A DNA stretch of 64,000 bases from Deltaproteobacteria bacterium (GCA_012728915.1 JAAYEC010000015.1:23082-87081), one strand, 5' to 3'. Shown: positions 7,760 to 63,784, counted from the stretch's first letter. Notes: generated by a model not told the origin, from the sequence alone. Numbers and translations are program-made.

Positions 7760-8875
7760 ATGAGCAAGAGCACTGGGATCATCGCCGCGTTCCTTGCCGT
7801 TTTGTTGCTGAGCTGCCAGGGCACGGAAACGGGGGCCATCGAGGAGAAGAAACCCATGACGAAGGAAAACGCAGCCACGGGGGTCGCCACCTTTGCGGGC
7901 GGCTGTTTCTGGTGCACCGAATCGGATTTCGAAAAGGTGCCGGGGGTCGTGAGGGTCATCTCGGGGTATACGGGCGGCAAGAAAGAGAACCCCACCTACG
8001 AGGAGGTCTCCAGCGGCTGGACAGGCCACGTGGAGGCCGTCCAGGTCCACTACGACCCGGGCAGGATTACCTACGAGCAGCTCCTGGATGTCTTCTGGAG
8101 GCACATCGACCCGACGGACACAGGCGGGCAGTTCGTCGACCGGGGCTCCCAGTACCGCAGCGCGGTCTTTTACCACGACGAGGAGCAGAGGCGGCTCGCC
8201 GAGGCCTCGCGCGATGCCCTTGCCCGTTCCGGGAAGTTCACTCGGCCCGTCACGACGGAAATGCTCCCGTTGACGAAATTCTACGAGGCCGAGGACTACC
8301 ACCAGGACTACTACAAGAAGGATCCCCTGCGTTACCGTCTCTACAGGGCCGGATCGGGGCGGGATTCGTTTCTGAAAAAGACCTGGGGCGACGAGAAGCC
8401 GCAATCGCCGGCCCCCGCCTCAAAGACCTGGCCGAAGCCCGACGAGGAGACCCTCAAGCAGACGCTCACGCCGCTGCAGTACCAGGTGACGCGGAGGGGC
8501 GGGACGGAGCCGCCTTTCCGGAACGAGTACCACGACAACAAGCGCGAGGGGATCTACGTGGACATCGTCTCGGGAGAGCCCCTGTTCAGCTCGCTGGACA
8601 AATATGATTCCGGAACGGGGTGGCCGAGCTTCACGAAGCCGCTGGAGCCGGGAAATGTGGTTGAAAGGCCGGACCGGAGTCACCTCATGGTCCGCACGGA
8701 GGTGCGCAGCCGGCACGGCGACTCCCACCTCGGCCACGTCTTCCCCGACGGCCCCGCGCCGACGGGGCGGCGCTACTGCATGAACTCGGCTGCCCTGCGC
8801 TTTATCCCGAAAGAAAACCTGGAAAAGGAGGGATACGGGAACTATCTCGGACTTTTCGAGGAAAAACAGCCTTGA
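7760..8875 (+). CDS. msrAB: Bifunctional methionine sulfoxide reductase MsrA-MsrB lipoprotein
   Basis: A lipobox LLLSC is present. MsrA is identified by [11 protein letters not shown], and MsrB by [33 protein letters not shown] and [11 protein letters not shown]. Confidence 0.9.
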
Positions 8876-24438: not shown

Positions 24439-24972
24439 TTACTTGCGGGCCTTCTTTGCCCCGGACTTTGCCTTGCGTTTCGAGGCAACTGTTTCCAGTT
24501 CGCTCTCGAGGCGGATCACCTTCCTGAGCTCGGCGAACAGGATCTTGTTCTTGGGCCGATCGGCGATGTCGTGGATGTCGATGTAGCGGATGATCCCGTA
24601 CTTGTCGAGCACGAAGATCGCCCGCTCCGAGAATCCTTCCTTGCGCTTCACGCCGTACTTCTTCGCGACGGCCGCCTGCGGAGAAAAATCGCTCAGCAGC
24701 GGGAAGGAGATCCCGCCCAGACTTTCCGCCCATGCCTTCAGGCAGGGGATATGATCGACGCTGATGCCCAGGACCTGGGCATTGAGCCCCGCGAACTTGG
24801 CCGTCTCGGCCTCGTACGAGGGCAGCTGGTTCGTTCAGACCGGCGTCCAGGCAAGGGGGAAGAACGCGATGACAACGGGACCCCGGCCGAGGCATTTTTT
24901 GAGAGTCACTCTTCTGTCGAGGTGACTCGGCAGGGTGAAGTTGGGGGCTTTCTGCCCGACCTTCAGCTTCAT
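24439..24972 (-). CDS. Peroxiredoxin (AhpC/TSA family) with an in-frame TGA (24835-24837, complement) at the peroxidatic Cys position; candidate selenoprotein
   Basis: MKLKVGQKAPNFTLP...VVIAFFPLAWTPV-[TGA]-TNQLPSYEAETAKFAGLNAQVLGISVDH...ERAIFVLDKYGIIRY. The two track ORFs 24835..25176 and 24439..24651 are in the same frame. Confidence 0.7.
24799..24823 (-). promoter_or_regulatory. Hairpin-capable sequence downstream of the peroxiredoxin UGA (candidate SECIS)
   Basis: On the mRNA strand two overlapping hairpins are possible. GCCCU-CGUACG-AGGC begins 12 nt after the UGA, and GGCCG-AGA-CGGCC begins 24 nt after it. Confidence 0.3.
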
Positions 24973-59285: not shown

Positions 59286-59561
59286 TCAGCCGATCATGGT
59301 CTTGATCGCATCGGCAACGGGAGAGGTGAAGAGGGCTATCATCACCGCGTAGAGCGCGAAGGAGCCGGCGGCCTCGCTCAGGTAGAGCTTCTCATACTTC
59401 TGCTTGAGCGAGAGGATCGTAAGCCCGCCGATCACGATGGCGCCGAGGTGGAAGTAGGGGAAGTTGTCCGCACCCGCGGCGGCGTATTCAGCAAAGCTGA
59501 AGGTGGCGGTGATGAGAACGACTAGGACGGTCAGGGCCAGCATCGAAAGCGACTTTTTCAT
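59286..59561 (-). CDS. Small hypothetical membrane protein (91 aa)
   Basis: A GGAGGAAA RBS is present. The protein has a signal/TM segment plus two further TM segments. Confidence 0.6.
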   Translation of the reverse strand: MKKSLSMLALTVLVVLITATFSFAEYAAAGADNFPYFHLGAIVIGGLTILSLKQKYEKLYLSEAAGSFALYAVMIALFTSPVADAIKTMIG

Positions 59562-59836
59562 TTTCTATTTCCTCCTTGCGACTGGTTTATTTCCGATCTT
59601 TGCCTTTCTCTATTGAAACGATCGTGCCAAGTCGCAACGGCGAAACAGAAAATTTGTAACTGCTGGTCATGATTGAAAAAACAGCGGTTCAGTTCAACCG
59701 CCCTTTGCGCGGGGGGGCCAGGAAAGGGGCTGCCCGTTGAATGGAACGTTCAACCGCGTTGAACGGATATTTCAAACGAAGATCTTCCCTGTCCGCAATG
59801 ATCCCCGTTCGGCCCACGGCCGAAGGGTCAGACGTC

Positions 59837-60043
59837 TCAGGTCCCGCCGTAGCCCACGGTCACTTTCCCGCCTTCGACGATGACGGGGACAAGCCTTTTG
59901 CCCCCGGAGAGCTTCAGCATCTCGGCAAGCCGCCCTGTATCCTTTTTCACATCCACGTAATCCGCCCCGGCGCCATAGGCCGACCTGGCCCTGTCCGTGT
60001 AAGGTCAGCCCGCCTTGCCGTAGATGACCGCCTTGTCCGCCAT
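59837..60043 (-). CDS. Glutaredoxin-like protein with in-frame TGA (60005-60007, complement) at the first active-site Cys (U-P-Y-T); candidate selenoprotein, absent from the ORF track
   Basis: An AGGAGG RBS lies 9 nt upstream, and the ATG is 28 nt after the rtcB stop codon. The protein is MADKAVIYGKAG-[TGA]-PYTDRARSAYGAGADYVDVKKDTGRLAEMLKLSGGKRLVPVIVEGGKVTVGYGGT. This matches the glutaredoxin pattern VxIYxKxxCPYCxxA...vP.i.i.G..igG. Confidence 0.6.
59978..59990 (-). promoter_or_regulatory. Candidate SECIS-like hairpin after the glutaredoxin-like UGA
   Basis: On the mRNA strand the sequence is GGCC-AGGUC-GGCC. The loop contains GGUC and lies ~21-25 nt after the UGA. Confidence 0.35.
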
Positions 60044-60071
60044 GACCGCGACCCTCCTGTTGTCTTTCCGC

Positions 60072-61514
60072 CTACCCCTTGATGCATCCGATGGCCTTGA
60101 GTCTCGCAACCTTGCGGGAGATCCCCGCACCGTGGACAACCCTGATGACCTCGTCGATATCCTTATAGGCCTCGGGGATCTCCTCGGCCAGGGTCCCCTT
60201 GGCGGCGGCCATGACGAGGACCCCGCGATCCTCCATTTCGCGGCGAATCGCGCGGCCCTTGCTGGCCTTGATGGCCGCGGCCCGGCTCAATACGCGCCCC
60301 GCGCCGTGGCAGGTGCTCCCGAAGGTCTGCTCCATGGCCCTTTCGGTCCCCACGAGCACGTAGGATCCCGCGCCCATGTCTCCGGGGATCAGCACGGGCT
60401 GGCCCGTCTTGCGGTACTTCTCCGGGAGAGCCGGGTGCCCCGGCGGGAACGCGCGGGTGGCCCCCTTGCGGTGGACGCAGAGGGTCATCTTCTTCCCGTC
60501 CACGACGTGCTCTTCGATCTTGGCGATATTGTGGCTCACATCGTAGATGAGGCGCATGCCGAGATCGCGGGGACTCAGCCCCAAGGCGCGTTCGAGGGCC
60601 TCGCCTGCCCGGTGCATGAGCATCTGGCGGTTGGCCCAGGCGTAGTTTGCCGCGCACGCCATGGCCGAAAGGTACTGCTGCCCCTCCGGCGAGCGGATGT
60701 AGGCGCAGGCAAGCTGCCTGTCCGGAAGGACGATCCCCATCCTGTCGACGTACTTCACCAGTCTTGCCAGGTAGTCGTCGCAGACCTGGTGCCCGAGGCC
60801 GCGGGAGCCGCTGTGGATCATGACGACCACCTGCCCCGTCTCGATGCCCAGGGCGGAGGCCGCGTCGCGGTCGAAGATCTCCTCGACGATCTCCACCTCG
60901 AGGAAGTGATTGCCGGAGCCCAGGGTGCCCACCTGGTCCTTTCCCCGTTCGAGGGCGCGCTCGCTGACCGCGTCCGGGTCGGCGCCGGGCAGGCAGCCCC
61001 CGTCCTCCATAGAATCCAGATCTCCGGCGGAACCATAGCCGTTTTTTACGGCCCAGCGGGCCCCCTCGGCGAGAACCTGCTTTTCTTCGCTGCGCGACAG
61101 CCTCAGGGCCCCTTTCGAGCCCACGCCCGAGGGCACATGCTGGAACAGGGCGGTGACGATCTTCTCCATCTGCGGGCGGATCTCCTCATGGTTGAGGTTG
61201 GTCGCCATCAGGCGACAGCCGCAGTTGATGTCGTACCCCACCCCTCCGGGCGAGATGACGCCGCCGTCGAGTTCGAAAGCGGCCACCCCTCCGATGGGAA
61301 AGCCGTAGCCCCAGTGCATGTCGGGCATGGCGAGCGAGTGCTTCACGATCCCCGGCAAATGGGCCACGTTGGCTACCTGCCTGGGGCTTTCGTCCTGCCC
61401 CATGGCCTTCATCAGTTTCGCGCTTGCGTAGATCATCCCGGGAACGCGCATGGAGCCTTCCCTCGGGACTTCCCAGCGGTACTCGTCGAGGCGGCGCAGC
61501 TTTACGTCAGACAT
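60072..61514 (-). CDS. rtcB: RNA-splicing ligase RtcB
   Basis: LPGIVKHSLAMPDMHWGYGFPIGGV, GYDINCGCR, GSGNHFLE, HSGSRGLGHQ and TCHGAGR are present. Confidence 0.95.
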   Translation of the reverse strand: MSDVKLRRLDEYRWEVPREGSMRVPGMIYASAKLMKAMGQDESPRQVANVAHLPGIVKHSLAMPDMHWGYGFPIGGVAAFELDGGVISPGGVGYDINCGCRLMATNLNHEEIRPQMEKIVTALFQHVPSGVGSKGALRLSRSEEKQVLAEGARWAVKNGYGSAGDLDSMEDGGCLPGADPDAVSERALERGKDQVGTLGSGNHFLEVEIVEEIFDRDAASALGIETGQVVVMIHSGSRGLGHQVCDDYLARLVKYVDRMGIVLPDRQLACAYIRSPEGQQYLSAMACAANYAWANRQMLMHRAGEALERALGLSPRDLGMRLIYDVSHNIAKIEEHVVDGKKMTLCVHRKGATRAFPPGHPALPEKYRKTGQPVLIPGDMGAGSYVLVGTERAMEQTFGSTCHGAGRVLSRAAAIKASKGRAIRREMEDRGVLVMAAAKGTLAEEIPEAYKDIDEVIRVVHGAGISRKVARLKAIGCIKG

Positions 61515-61923
61515 CGAAGATCACCCTTGCCTCCCAGCCGTCGGCCGTCTGACCGACCCGGGCCTGGTGATAGGTAACGGCCTTGATTTCCTTGCAGACC
61601 TCGTGCTTCCGCCCGTCGAGGGGCTCGCCACAAGCCTCGGCCTCGAGCGCGTTGTCCTTTACCTGTATAACGCGAATCTCCTTCAACAGCCAGCGCTCGC
61701 CATTATAGAGGTAAAGAATCTCGCGAAGGAAGTTGACGAGGAGATCCTCCGGACTGTCCCCTTCCGCATGAATTCTCCGAACCTCGAGGGCTTCAACCCG
61801 GCCCAGATCGGTGATGGTGTCGAAGACGGCGAAGGCGGCGTTTGCATAGAGATCCCCTTCCGTCTCTCCGGTTACCAGGAGACCCAGATCCGCCGTATGA
61901 TCAAACGTCTGGTATGGTTTCAT
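61507..61923 (-). CDS. Archease (RtcB activator)
   Basis: The protein begins MKPYQTFDHTADLGLLV and contains IKAVTYHQ. It overlaps the rtcB start by 8 nt (gATGTCTGAc). Confidence 0.9.
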   Translation of the reverse strand: MKPYQTFDHTADLGLLVTGETEGDLYANAAFAVFDTITDLGRVEALEVRRIHAEGDSPEDLLVNFLREILYLYNGERWLLKEIRVIQVKDNALEAEACGEPLDGRKHEVCKEIKAVTYHQARVGQTADGWEARVIFDV

Positions 61924-62179
61924 GATTCGATTCTATTGATCCTGGCGTGGGCCTGTCAACTTCCGGATCTCCCCTTTTCGCCGTTCCTGGAAGAATTGTC
62001 TCCTTTCGTCAATTTTGTCGATCCTGCCCCGTCTCTTCGGTTTTTCGACGGCCACAGGCGATTTTCTTTTTTCCAATCCTCTCAATTCCGACATTTATTG
62101 CCGGACTGCACGTCCCTCGAACGGGGCCGTCTTCGGAAAATGCTTAGCTATATCTATTGGTTACAAGACCATTGCCTTC

Positions 62180-63310: not shown

Positions 63311-63784
63311 CTACTCCTTGAAGATCTCGTTGAGGCGGCTCTGATTGAATCCGACGATCACCTCATCGCCTACGACGATCACGGGCACGCCCGTCTGCCC
63401 GGAAATCTTCACCATCTCGTCGAGCCCGCTACGGTCGCTCGTGATATCGATTTCCCTGTAGCGGATCTTCTTGTCCCGAAGCCAGGCCTTTGCCCGGTGG
63501 CACCAGGGGCAGGTCGGCGTCGTGTAGATGGTGACCTCTGCAGGACGGACGCGGAACACCTTGTTCTCTGCAGGCGGCCCTGCCTTCGCCCCCTTGTCGG
63601 CATCCTCCACCGCGATCGCCTGGGCAGCGTCCATCTTTCCTTCCGGCGGGCTCTCCGAGACATGGACCACTCCCCGGTCATCGACCCAGCGGTAGAGGAT
63701 CGCGGCACCGCTCAGACCGGCGATGAGGGTCACAGCGAATGCGGCCGCGACGGCTAACCACAGGAGGCAGGGCGCTCGTCTCAT
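63311..63784 (-). CDS. Membrane-anchored DUF4124-like + glutaredoxin protein (Cys form, CPWC)
   Basis: ILYRWVDDRGVVHVSESPP is DUF4124-like. It is followed by VTIYTTPTCPWCHRAKAWL...GVPVIVVGDEVIVGF. Confidence 0.8.
   Translation of the reverse strand: MRRAPCLLWLAVAAAFAVTLIAGLSGAAILYRWVDDRGVVHVSESPPEGKMDAAQAIAVEDADKGAKAGPPAENKVFRVRPAEVTIYTTPTCPWCHRAKAWLRDKKIRYREIDITSDRSGLDEMVKISGQTGVPVIVVGDEVIVGFNQSRLNEIFKE

What the first reader, a model, noticed from the sequence alone, without database searches (positions are those of the whole stretch)
59837..60043. Glutaredoxin-like UPYT ORF (in-frame TGA) coupled to the archease-rtcB RNA-repair operon
Seen in sequence. An AGGAGG RBS and ATG lie 28 nt after the rtcB stop codon and open a 68-codon frame. 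The protein is MADKAVIYGKAG-U-PYTDRARSAY...RLVPVIVEGGKVTVGYGGT. This matches the glutaredoxin/NrdH pattern, with TGA at the first Cys of CPYC and Thr at the second. A GGCC-AGGUC-GGCC hairpin lies 21-25 nt after the UGA; its GGUC-containing loop resembles the fdhF SECIS apex as I remember it. The ORF is not in the supplied track. The three-gene arrangement archease, RtcB, Sec-glutaredoxin-like is unusual to my knowledge. Archease and rtcB overlap by 8 nt. A redox partner in this operon could protect or reactivate the RtcB metal/Cys active site (inference).
Basis: partly seen in the sequence, partly recalled or inferred. Interest (0 to 1): 0.72.

Follow-up and report, generated by a model that had tools for sequence, protein, structure and literature searches.

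The report
Known two-selenocysteine glutaredoxin-like gene
It sits behind the RNA-ligase gene rtcB because of a local inversion in one small bacterial lineage, not because the two genes are conserved partners.

Summary
With Sec written as Cys it scores 107.9 bits (cut-off 72) against NCBIfam NF041114, "UXX-star selenoprotein family 1". A 2026 review lists this family as "Distant Grx-like protein 1" with motif UxxT and 2 Sec.

The protein ends ...GGT-U-D-V-stop, and the true gene is 60043..59828 on the minus strand. In 79 related genome loci the pattern TGA, two codons, stop is invariant.

Each UGA is followed by a hairpin whose loop begins 19-20 nt downstream. The first hairpin lies in coding sequence and shows compensatory changes. 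The second lies just after the stop codon, and 74 of 79 loci have a stem of at least 6 bp there, with 35 different stem sequences.

The link to rtcB is not conserved. Only the window's subclade has rtcB and this gene in tandem. Sixteen related loci have them convergent, one sister lineage has deleted the gene, and 74 of 80 family loci have no rtcB within 8 kb. A 250-bp inversion created the "operon". A dedicated redox role for RtcB remains speculation.

The parts
59828..60043 (-). Complete gene for the UXX-star family 1 glutaredoxin-like double selenoprotein: 70 residues plus the stop, MADKAVIYGKAG-U-PYT...GYGGT-U-DV-stop.
   Evidence: Translation. NCBIfam NF041114 at 107.9 bits against a cut-off of 72, matching profile positions 2-70 of 70. 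pN/pS of 0.2-0.4 against relatives.
60053..60058 (-). Shine-Dalgarno AGGAGG, 9 nt before the ATG.
   Evidence: Read directly from the sequence. It lies inside the segment that is inverted relative to sister clades.
60005..60007 (-). Sec codon 1 (UGA), at the first position of the U-P-Y-T active-site motif.
   Evidence: This position is TGA in 55 of 79 related genome loci and TGT or TGC in 24 of 79.
59977..59991 (-). SECIS 1: a 5-bp stem (GGGCC / GGCCU) with loop AGGUC, inside the coding sequence. The loop starts 19 nt after UGA1.
   Evidence: 96.2% of cells are paired, 3 of 5 pairs carry compensatory changes, no shuffle out of 500 reaches it, and slid registers pair in 54% of cells or less. 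It is intact in 47 of 56 Sec forms against 6 of 24 Cys forms.
59837..59839 (-). It is the U of the C-terminal U-x-x-stop motif.
   Evidence: TGA followed by exactly two codons and a stop occurs in 79 of 79 loci. The dipeptide is GV in 55 loci and DV in 7. Adding the last three residues raises the NF041114 score from 100 to 107.9 bits.
59828..59830 (-). The true stop codon (TGA).
59804..59827 (-). SECIS 2: hairpin CCCUUCGGCC-GUG-GGCCGAA(C)GGG, starting immediately after the stop codon. The loop starts 20 nt after UGA2.
   Evidence: 74 of 79 loci have an uninterrupted stem of at least 6 bp with the loop 16-24 nt after UGA2, against 12.7% of dinucleotide shuffles. There are 35 distinct inner stem sequences, and only 5 hairpins are followed by a U-run. 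The repeat finder pair I10.
60072..61514 (-). rtcB, the RNA 3'-phosphate ligase gene (480 aa).
   Evidence: Pfam PF01139 at 602.8 bits.
61507..61923 (-). Archease gene. It overlaps rtcB by 8 nt.
   Evidence: Pfam PF01951 at 138.7 bits; coordinates.
61930..61959 (-). Sigma-70-like promoter match (TTGACA, 18 nt, TAGAAT) just upstream of archease. It is the putative promoter of the archease-rtcB-selenoprotein unit.
   Evidence: Consensus scan, 11 of 12 matches. This is a prediction only.
59683..59702 (-). Terminator-like hairpin followed by GTTTTTT. It is the first such site downstream of rtcB and lies after the selenoprotein gene.
   Evidence: This is a prediction only.
59807..60057 (.). Segment of about 250 bp (RBS, ORF and SECIS 2) that is inverted relative to sister clades, while both flanks stay collinear.
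   Evidence: blastn against L001, L002, L003, L005 and L032; sequences. The same orientation as the window appears in the independent assemblies L081 (99.7% identity), L082, L085 and L091.

Best explanation
The locus encodes a 70-residue glutaredoxin-fold protein with two selenocysteines. It belongs to the already curated 'UXX-star selenoprotein family 1' (NCBIfam NF041114), also called 'Distant Grx-like protein 1'.

**What the sequence and comparisons show**
- Sec13 occupies the nucleophile position of the CPYC-type motif, which here reads U-P-Y-T.
- Sec69 lies in the C-terminal tail T-U-D-V-stop.
- Each UGA is followed by a SECIS hairpin with the same spacing. The first is in coding sequence. 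The second is directly after the real stop codon.

**Inferred mechanism**
- The resolving Cys of CxxC is replaced by Thr. The C-terminal Sec follows the Grx 'GG' kink next to the active site.
- Sec69 therefore probably acts as the resolving or partner residue, forming a diselenide with Sec13. In relatives with Cys at position 13 the bond would be a selenenylsulfide.
- The protein would then be a small thiol/selenol oxidoreductase, or a chalcogen-ligand protein.

**Position behind rtcB**
- The position is a derived state. In the ancestor of a small Syntrophaceae-type clade, a segment of about 250 bp holding the RBS, ORF and SECIS 2 was inverted.
- A formerly convergent, independently transcribed gene now lies 28 nt downstream of rtcB without a promoter of its own.
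- In this lineage it is therefore probably co-transcribed with archease-rtcB. This is an inference.
- That arrangement is a lineage-specific accident of gene order, not evidence of a conserved RtcB partnership.
For: **Family membership**
- NF041114 scores 107.9 bits against a cut-off of 72, full length. NF041212 scores 82.4 against 66.
- The review PMC13188914, Table 1, lists the family with motif UxxT and 2 Sec.
- A Pelotomaculum homologue is named 'UXX-star selenoprotein family 1' by NCBI.

**Second Sec**
- TGA, two codons, then a stop occurs in 79 of 79 loci.
- Database proteins translated with TGA as Trp end ...GYGGSWGV.

**SECIS elements**

**Fold**
- The AF2 model has pLDDT 79.8 and a beta-alpha-beta-alpha-beta-beta topology.
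- The best Foldseek PDB hits are all glutaredoxins, with TM about 0.7.

**Purifying selection**
- pN/pS is 0.2-0.4, including within the tandem clade.

**Sec use by the organism**
- A second gene in the window has TGA at the peroxidatic Cys position of a peroxiredoxin.

**Inversion**
- The flanks are collinear and the cassette is inverted.
- The tandem state forms one clade on the rtcB tree, and the convergent state is found in the other two clades.
- Four independent assemblies show the window's orientation.
- There is no terminator-like site between rtcB and the gene. A promoter-like site lies before archease, and a terminator-like site lies after the gene.
Against: - Nothing experimental was available. 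Sec insertion at either UGA, co-transcription with rtcB and the diselenide are all inferred.
- The C-terminal tail has low confidence in the model (pLDDT about 36). The modelled homologue carried Trp at both Sec positions. Model coordinates could not be read, so the distance from the tail to the active site was not measured.
- No Sec-decoding genes (selA, selB, selD) were identified in the 64-kb window, whose proteins were not scanned systematically for them. ARAGORN found no tRNA-Sec in the window.
- The Fisher test comparing Sec and Cys forms is not corrected for phylogeny.
- Persistence of adjacency with rtcB (convergent or tandem) across a clade whose rtcB is only about 72% identical at nucleotide level could hide a weak functional link.
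Confidence: 0.86

Rival explanations
1. The selenoprotein is a dedicated redox partner of RtcB, recruited to the archease-rtcB operon to protect or reactivate RtcB's active-site Cys and metal centre. It would be a bacterial counterpart of PYROXD1 protecting metazoan RTCB.
For: - The gene lies 28 nt downstream of rtcB, with no terminator-like site between them and no room for its own promoter.
- The gene is intact and under purifying selection in two diverged members of the tandem clade, the window and L091.
- Adjacency to rtcB in either orientation persists across a clade down to about 72% rtcB nucleotide identity.
- RTCB's active-site Cys is known to be oxidation-sensitive and is protected by an oxidoreductase in metazoa (PMC12263435, found).
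Against: - In 16 related loci the gene is convergent with rtcB and is therefore a separate transcription unit.
- The sister lineage L087 deleted the gene cleanly while keeping archease-rtcB. The L085 copy carries two frameshifts.
- 74 of 80 family loci have no rtcB within 8 kb, including 53 of the 58 that have at least 2 kb on both sides.
- 61 of 80 rtcB loci have no such gene nearby, although nearly all keep archease.
- Elsewhere the family's neighbours are cNMP-binding, rubrerythrin-like, ArsR and ECF-sigma genes, not RNA-repair genes.
- No paper in the library links RtcB, archease and a selenoprotein.
Confidence: 0.07
2. The two Sec residues are not a redox pair. They act as ligands for a metal or metalloid such as Hg, As or Cu, or for an unknown small substrate. 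The protein would then be a carrier or chaperone rather than a disulfide oxidoreductase.
For: [quoted passage not shown]
- ArsR-family regulators lie next to the gene in 7 family loci, and rubrerythrin-like genes in 10.
- The motif lacks the second Cys of a dithiol glutaredoxin.
Against: - No metal-resistance genes accompany it in the window or consistently elsewhere.
- The fold and the placement of the active site are those of thiol oxidoreductases.
- No direct evidence exists either way.
Confidence: 0.2
3. The TGAs are ordinary stop codons. The locus is then a dead glutaredoxin remnant or a 39-residue fragment gene, as gene callers annotate it, and the hairpin after the ORF is only a transcription terminator.
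For: Automatic gene calls in public data give 37-39-residue fragments that start after the first TGA. Rfam has no matching model.
Against: - The 12 codons upstream of TGA1 and the RBS are conserved in 79 loci, with Cys/Sec alternation at that codon.
- The U-x-x-stop spacing is invariant in 79 of 79 loci.
- SECIS 1 shows covariation.
- The hairpin after UGA2 sits at a fixed distance from it, and only 5 of 79 are followed by a U-run.
- The protein scores above the curated cut-off of a selenoprotein model.
Confidence: 0.02

Closest known systems
UXX-star selenoprotein family 1 (NCBIfam NF041114; 'Distant Grx-like protein 1', Zhang and Gladyshev 2008, as listed in review PMC13188914)
   Same: It matches the full-length HMM above the curated cut-off. 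It has about 70 residues, a G-U-P-Y-T motif at the N-terminus, a GYGG[TS]-U-x-x-stop tail, two Sec residues, and a taxonomic home among anaerobic Thermodesulfobacteriota and relatives.
   Different: Nothing in the protein differs. Only the context is unusual: the tail dipeptide is DV rather than the common GV, and the gene is tandem to rtcB.
Selenoprotein glutaredoxin of Clostridium oremlandii (UxxC; Kim et al. 2011, cited in PMC13188914; structures 4tr0 and 7c10)
   Same: Both have the glutaredoxin fold, with Foldseek TM about 0.7. Both carry Sec at the first position of the active-site motif.
   Different: The Clostridium protein keeps the resolving Cys (UxxC), has one Sec and has the C-terminal helix. 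This protein has Thr at the fourth position, no third helix in the model, and a second Sec on a C-terminal tail.
Mammalian thioredoxin reductase C-terminal -Gly-Cys-Sec-Gly tail (from my own knowledge)
   Same: Both carry a redox-active Sec a few residues from the C-terminus on a flexible tail, so the SECIS must lie beyond the stop codon.
   Different: TrxR is a large flavoenzyme with a eukaryotic 3'-UTR SECIS. Here a bacterial-type hairpin sits 10-16 nt after the UGA, and the partner residue is at the Grx active site. The resemblance is an analogy of working principle, not membership.
Monothiol glutaredoxins with a semi-conserved resolving Cys after the GG kink (e.g. yeast Grx5 'GGC'; from my own knowledge)
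   Same: Both have a single nucleophile at the active site and a second chalcogen residue just after the beta4 'GG' motif that can close an intramolecular bond.
   Different: The register differs by 2-3 residues in the alignment to Grx 2khp. The residue here is Sec, and the protein ends there.
PYROXD1 protection of metazoan RTCB (PMC12263435)
   Same: It is a precedent that RtcB-type ligases need redox protection of an active-site Cys.
   Different: PYROXD1 is an unrelated flavoprotein. No bacterial equivalent is known, and the gene-order evidence here does not support a conserved link.
E. coli fdhF-type bacterial SECIS (from my own knowledge; no Rfam model matched)
   Same: Both are hairpins immediately downstream of the UGA with a G/U-containing apical loop (AGGUC here) at a fixed distance.
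   Different: The stem of SECIS 1 is short at 5 bp. SECIS 2 lies outside the coding region, after the stop codon.

Membership tests
[quoted passage not shown] | Full-length match to the curated HMM above its cut-off | tested here: met
   107.9 bits against a cut-off of 72, profile positions 2-70 of 70. The score is 100 bits without the last three residues.
[quoted passage not shown] | N-terminal G-[U/C]-P-x-T motif at the glutaredoxin active-site position | tested here: met
   The window has G-U-P-Y-T with TGA at 60007-60005. All 79 aligned loci have [U/C]-P-[YFH]-T.
[quoted passage not shown] | C-terminal Sec followed by two residues and the stop codon (U-x-x-*) | tested here: met
   The window reads ...GGT-TGA-GAC-GTC-TGA. 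The pattern is present in 79 of 79 loci.
[quoted passage not shown] | A SECIS-type hairpin after each UGA | tested here: met
   SECIS 1 covariation and the Sec-versus-Cys contrast. SECIS 2 hairpin statistics.
[quoted passage not shown] | Actual incorporation of selenocysteine at both positions | not testable with these tools
   This needs 75Se labelling or mass spectrometry. The family is listed as 'predicted with high confidence', not as experimentally verified.
Classical dithiol glutaredoxin (PF00462; NCBIfam Grx equivalogs) | Glutaredoxin domain and fold | tested here: met
   Pfam PF00462 at 31.5 bits against 22.9. Foldseek top hits are glutaredoxins with TM about 0.7.
Classical dithiol glutaredoxin (PF00462; NCBIfam Grx equivalogs) | C-x-x-C active site with a resolving second Cys | tested here: not met
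   The fourth position is Thr in the window and in all 79 family loci.
Classical dithiol glutaredoxin (PF00462; NCBIfam Grx equivalogs) | Score above the cut-off of a glutaredoxin equivalog model (Grx3, GrxA, YruB, mycoredoxin) | tested here: not met
   TIGR02181 scores 28.5 against 90, TIGR02196 scores 25.7 against 88.55, and the others are lower.
Classical dithiol glutaredoxin (PF00462; NCBIfam Grx equivalogs) | C-terminal helix after the GG kink | tested here: not met
   The model has the elements E5-9, H14-26, E27-31, H36-45, E54-57 and E60-63 and no third helix. The protein ends 8 residues after beta4.
NrdH-redoxin | Match to an NrdH model and linkage to nrdEF | tested here: not met
   No NrdH model appears among the NCBIfam hits at E <= 0.01. 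NrdH structures rank only 18th or lower in the fold search. Clustering of the family's neighbouring ORFs gave no ribonucleotide-reductase family among the clusters that were annotated.
Conserved archease-RtcB operon accessory gene | Co-directional adjacency to rtcB conserved across diverged lineages | tested here: not met
   The tandem state occurs only in one clade (the window, L081, L082, L085, L091). Sixteen loci are convergent and L087 has a deletion. 74 of 80 family loci and 61 of 80 rtcB loci show no link.
Conserved archease-RtcB operon accessory gene | Co-transcription with rtcB in this organism | not testable with these tools
   Only predictions are available. There is no terminator-like site in the 28-nt spacer, a promoter-like site lies before archease, and a terminator-like site lies after the gene. 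RNA-seq is needed.
Bacterial SECIS element | Hairpin immediately 3' of the UGA with a G/U-containing apical loop at a constrained distance | tested here: met
   The loop starts at +19 for SECIS 1 and +20 for SECIS 2 in the window. Across loci it falls at +17 to +23 in 76 of 79, and the loops are AGGUC, GUG, GUU, GGU or CGUGC.
Bacterial SECIS element | Match to a curated RNA family model | tested here: not met
   Rfam gave no hit at gathering threshold over the window and none at E <= 10 over 59650-60150. No matching model may exist in Rfam.
Bacterial SECIS element | SelB binding and Sec-decoding machinery in the genome | not testable with these tools
   ARAGORN found no tRNA-Sec in the window, and the window's proteins were not searched for selA, selB or selD. 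The rest of the genome is not available. A second TGA-containing peroxiredoxin gene in the window gives indirect support.

The most novel reading that the evidence does not exclude
In the small Syntrophaceae-type clade that carries the inversion, the double-selenocysteine Grx-like protein may have been captured into the archease-rtcB transcript. It would now serve as a dedicated reductant that keeps RtcB's Cys and metal active site functional. That would be the first bacterial analogue of PYROXD1-type protection of an RNA ligase.
Probability: 0.06. Interest if true: 0.6.

Novelty: already known. Interest (0 to 1): 0.15.

Why it matters
There are three practical points.

- **Annotation.** The locus shows how double-Sec genes are mis-annotated. 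Gene callers give 37-39-residue fragments, and a careful human reader found only one of the two Sec codons. The correct product has 70 residues and two Sec.
- **SECIS outside the coding region.** The family offers a clean natural example of a bacterial SECIS that works from just beyond the stop codon. It has the same spacing as the in-frame SECIS of the same gene.
- **Gene order.** The apparent archease-RtcB-Grx operon should not be used as evidence for a redox partner of bacterial RtcB. It arose from one 250-bp inversion and is dispensable in a sister lineage.

If the low-probability reading were true, it would give a testable bacterial model for redox protection of RtcB.

Tried and rejected
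- **Rfam.** A search at gathering threshold over the whole window and a search at E <= 10 over 59650-60150 found nothing. No usable bacterial SECIS model matched, so the hairpins were tested by counts on related loci instead.
- **Single-sequence folding.** The MFE fold of the 61 nt from UGA1 was not better than shuffles (z = -0.38). One sequence alone is uninformative here. The comparative test was decisive.
- **Structure prediction.** A homologue with Trp at both Sec positions was modelled instead. The tail has low confidence and coordinates are not readable, so the diselenide geometry could not be checked.
- **Literature.** Haft and Tolstoy 2025 (mSystems), which probably describes the UXX-star families, is not held in the library. 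Zhang and Gladyshev 2008 does not use the term 'distant Grx' in its main text.
- **Assembly artefact.** This explanation for the tandem orientation was rejected. Four independent assemblies agree with the window.
- **Invertible, phase-variable cassette.** This was rejected as a general explanation. The tandem state is monophyletic. Flanking inverted repeats occur only in L001, and no convincing repeats flank the cassette in the window.
- **GC3-based scan for other in-frame TGAs.** The output was mostly noise. Inspection of 11 candidates gave one credible case, a peroxiredoxin.
- **Family-wide neighbourhood clustering.** It gave no single conserved partner.

Full report
**1. Observation**

All three genes lie on the minus strand. 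Archease is at 61923..61507 (PF01951, 138.7 bits). rtcB is at 61514..60072 (PF01139, 602.8 bits). The two overlap by 8 nt.

The rtcB stop TAG (60074-60072) is followed by a 28-nt spacer that contains AGGAGG (60058-60053). The ATG is at 60043. The frame reads MADKAVIYGKAG*PYTDRARSAYGAGADYVDVKKDTGRLAEMLKLSGGKRLVPVIVEGGKVTVGYGGT*, with the in-frame TGA at 60007-60005.

**2. What it is**

With the TGA read as Cys, the protein hits Pfam Glutaredoxin at 31.5 bits against a gathering score of 22.9. More specifically, it hits NCBIfam NF041114, "UXX-star selenoprotein family 1", at 100 bits against a curated cut-off of 72.

A search of the 5.8-billion-protein collection returned 46 relatives.
- One is a Pelotomaculum protein that NCBI names "UXX-star selenoprotein family 1".
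- Several full-length proteins were translated with TGA as Trp, and these end ...GYGGSWGV.
- Many are fragments of 37-39 residues that start just after the TGA.

[quoted passage not shown] It appears under "predicted with high confidence" and is credited to Zhang and Gladyshev 2008 (PMC13188914). The kind of gene is already known and curated.

**3. The second selenocysteine**

A genome scan with an alignment of relatives gave 80 loci from Syntrophales, Desulfobacterales, Desulfovibrionales, Thermodesulfovibrionales, Pelotomaculum, Spirochaetota and Brocadiia.

In 79 of them the ORF continues as ...GYGG[TSA]-TGA, then two codons, then a stop. The two codons encode GV in 55 loci and DV in 7. This invariant spacing gives the family its name: U-x-x-stop.

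The window reads GGG ACC TGA GAC GTC TGA. The product ends T-U-D-V, and the gene is 60043..59828. Adding these three residues extends the NF041114 match to the whole profile (positions 2-70 of 70) and raises the score to 107.9 bits.

The first position is TGA in 55 of 79 loci and TGT or TGC in 24 of 79. The C-terminal TGA is kept even where the first position is Cys.

**4. SECIS elements**

*SECIS 1.* This is a 5-bp stem with a 5-nt loop at a fixed register (window 59991-59977, loop AGGUC).
- On a gapless, codon-anchored alignment of 53 distinct Sec-form sequences, 96.2% of cells pair.
- Three of the five pairs show changes on both sides, in 23 cells.
- No shuffle out of 500 reaches the observed pairing or covariation. 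Slid registers give at most 54% pairing.
- The stem is fully paired in 47 of 56 Sec forms but in only 6 of 24 Cys forms. Fisher p is 7e-7, not corrected for phylogeny.

*SECIS 2.* This hairpin starts 1-7 nt after the real stop codon.
- 74 of 79 loci have an uninterrupted stem of at least 6 bp whose loop begins 16-24 nt after UGA2. Only 12.7% of dinucleotide shuffles do.
- The inner stems have 35 different sequences.
- The loops are rich in G and U (GUU, CGUGC, GGU, GUC, GUG).
- Only 5 hairpins are followed by a U-run, so they are not ordinary terminators.
- In the window it is CCCUUCGGCC-GUG-GGCCGAA(C)GGG at 59827-59804.

The loop starts 19 nt after UGA1 and 20 nt after UGA2. This matches what is expected if the same SelB reads both, which is an inference. 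Rfam has no matching model. The single-sequence fold was uninformative.

**5. Fold and likely chemistry**

An AF2 model of a 70%-identical homologue has mean pLDDT 79.8. Its topology is beta-alpha-beta-alpha-beta-beta, and it has a disordered C-terminal tail and no third helix. Its best PDB matches are all glutaredoxins, with TM about 0.7. They include the Clostridium oremlandii Grx proteins.

Sequence alignment to solved Grx structures places the family's GYGG next to the Grx "GG" kink that borders the active site.

I infer that Sec69 on the tail replaces the missing resolving Cys, which is Thr16 here. It would pair with Sec13 as a diselenide. This resembles the resolving Cys after the GG kink in monothiol Grx and the C-terminal Sec tail of thioredoxin reductase, both from my own knowledge. 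The review instead suggests a ligand role for metals or unknown substrates. That remains a live alternative.

pN/pS against relatives is 0.2-0.4.

**6. The rtcB link**

*Family-centred test.* Only 6 of the 80 family loci have archease-rtcB within 8 kb. Among the 58 loci with at least 2 kb on both sides, 5 do. In all six, the gene is convergent with rtcB.

*Local comparison.* blastn shows that both flanks are collinear with the window. The segment of about 250 bp at 60057..59807 (RBS, ORF and SECIS 2) is inverted.

*rtcB-centred test.* A metagenome scan gave 80 loci with RtcB 63-91% identical to the window's.

| State of the gene relative to rtcB | Loci |
|---|---|
| Tandem (L085, L091) | 2 |
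| Convergent | 10 |
| Convergent, about 860 nt away | 1 |
| None nearby | 61 |
| Too short to tell | 6 |

Nearly all of these loci keep archease.

*Phylogeny.* On an rtcB neighbour-joining tree, the tandem state is a single clade made of the window, L085 and L091. Its sister L087 has deleted the cassette cleanly. The convergent state occupies the two other clades and is therefore ancestral. The L085 copy has two 1-nt deletions, which could be a pseudogene or sequencing error.

*Not an assembly artefact.* Independent assemblies L081 (99.7% identical over 1806 bp) and L082 (93% identical) share the window's orientation.

*Expression.* The inversion carried only about 14 nt upstream of the ATG. 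Expression in this clade must therefore come from the archease-rtcB promoter or from a promoter inside rtcB. This is an inference. It is consistent with a promoter-like site at 61959-61930, no terminator-like site in the spacer, and a terminator-like site at 59702-59683.

*Neighbours elsewhere.* The family's neighbours are heterogeneous.
- cNMP-binding protein directly upstream: 11 loci.
- Rubrerythrin-like protein directly downstream: 10 loci.
- ArsR regulator: 7 loci.
- ECF sigma factor: 7 loci.

No paper in the library links RtcB, archease and a selenoprotein.

RTCB is known to be oxidation-sensitive and is protected by PYROXD1 in metazoa (PMC12263435). The comparative evidence is against a conserved partnership.

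**7. Sec decoding in this organism**

ARAGORN found no tRNA-Sec in the window. The window's proteins were not searched for selA, selB or selD. The window does hold a second gene with an in-frame TGA at a catalytic Cys position. It is a peroxiredoxin-like ORF at about 24972..24442 (minus strand), reading FFPLAWTPV-U-TNQL. The homology runs across the TGA, although it scores below the equivalog cut-offs. Together with the conservation described above, this makes Sec decoding very likely.

**8. Verdict**

- The selenoprotein and SECIS interpretation is supported and extended to two Sec codons and two SECIS hairpins.
- The family is already known.
- The RtcB "operon" is a lineage-specific by-product of a small inversion and is not evidence of function.
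- Interest is low, at 0.15.

Noticed in passing
window 24442-24972 (minus strand); TGA at 24837-24835: A second candidate selenoprotein. It is a peroxiredoxin-like ORF reading MKLKVGQKAPNFTLPS...FFPLAWTPV-U-TNQLPSYE, with TGA at the peroxidatic Cys position (TxxU motif). NCBIfam peroxiredoxin models align across the TGA but score below the equivalog cut-offs.
   Followed up: partly
window 63311-63784 (minus strand): A conventional glutaredoxin-domain protein with a CPWC motif. It has an N-terminal signal-like segment and a DUF4124 domain (Pfam Glutaredoxin, 71.9 bits). It lies 1.4 kb upstream of archease.
   Followed up: partly
L087 5400-5500; L085 5360-5570: In the sister lineage L087 the whole selenoprotein cassette is deleted, and the rtcB stop runs directly into the conserved downstream flank. 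In L085 the tandem copy carries two 1-nt deletions, which may mean a pseudogene or sequencing error.
   Followed up: partly
L001 7933-7967 and 8303-8339; rtcB-grx spacers of L003, L005 and L032: Arrays of G-rich heptamer-like repeats (GGGTATA GGGGCCA GGGTACA ...) fill the spacer between the convergent rtcB and selenoprotein genes. In L001 an inverted copy (23 nt, 87% complementary) lies on the other side of the cassette, which could serve as a substrate for inversion. The repeats are absent from the window and were not found flanking the cassette in the other loci tested.
   Followed up: partly
L006, L007, L023-L025, L028, L029, L035, L037, L039, L054 (around position 8000): One sub-group of the family shows a recurrent three-gene arrangement: a cNMP-binding protein, 16-30 nt of spacer, the UXX-star selenoprotein, then 50-120 nt of spacer and a rubrerythrin-like protein. 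A pyruvoyl-dependent arginine decarboxylase gene often follows. This may hint at an oxidative-stress context.
   Followed up: partly
24 of 79 family loci (e.g. L009, L041 Pelotomaculum; L062-L079 Desulfovibrionales): Where the active-site residue is Cys (TGT or TGC), the C-terminal TGA-x-x-stop and its hairpin are still kept. The tail Sec is the more conserved of the two.
   Followed up: yes
L082 1-75; proteins P0004, P0006, P0008, P0016: These are public-data artefacts. Contig L082 begins with a Nextera adapter, translated as MCIRDR. Several database proteins of this family were called with TGA as Trp, giving GWPYT...GYGGSWGV, which incidentally documents both TGA codons.
   Followed up: yes
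window 59286-59561 (minus strand): A small predicted membrane protein of 91 aa with no Pfam hit is syntenic downstream of the cassette in the window and in L001-L005, L032 and L087.
   Followed up: no
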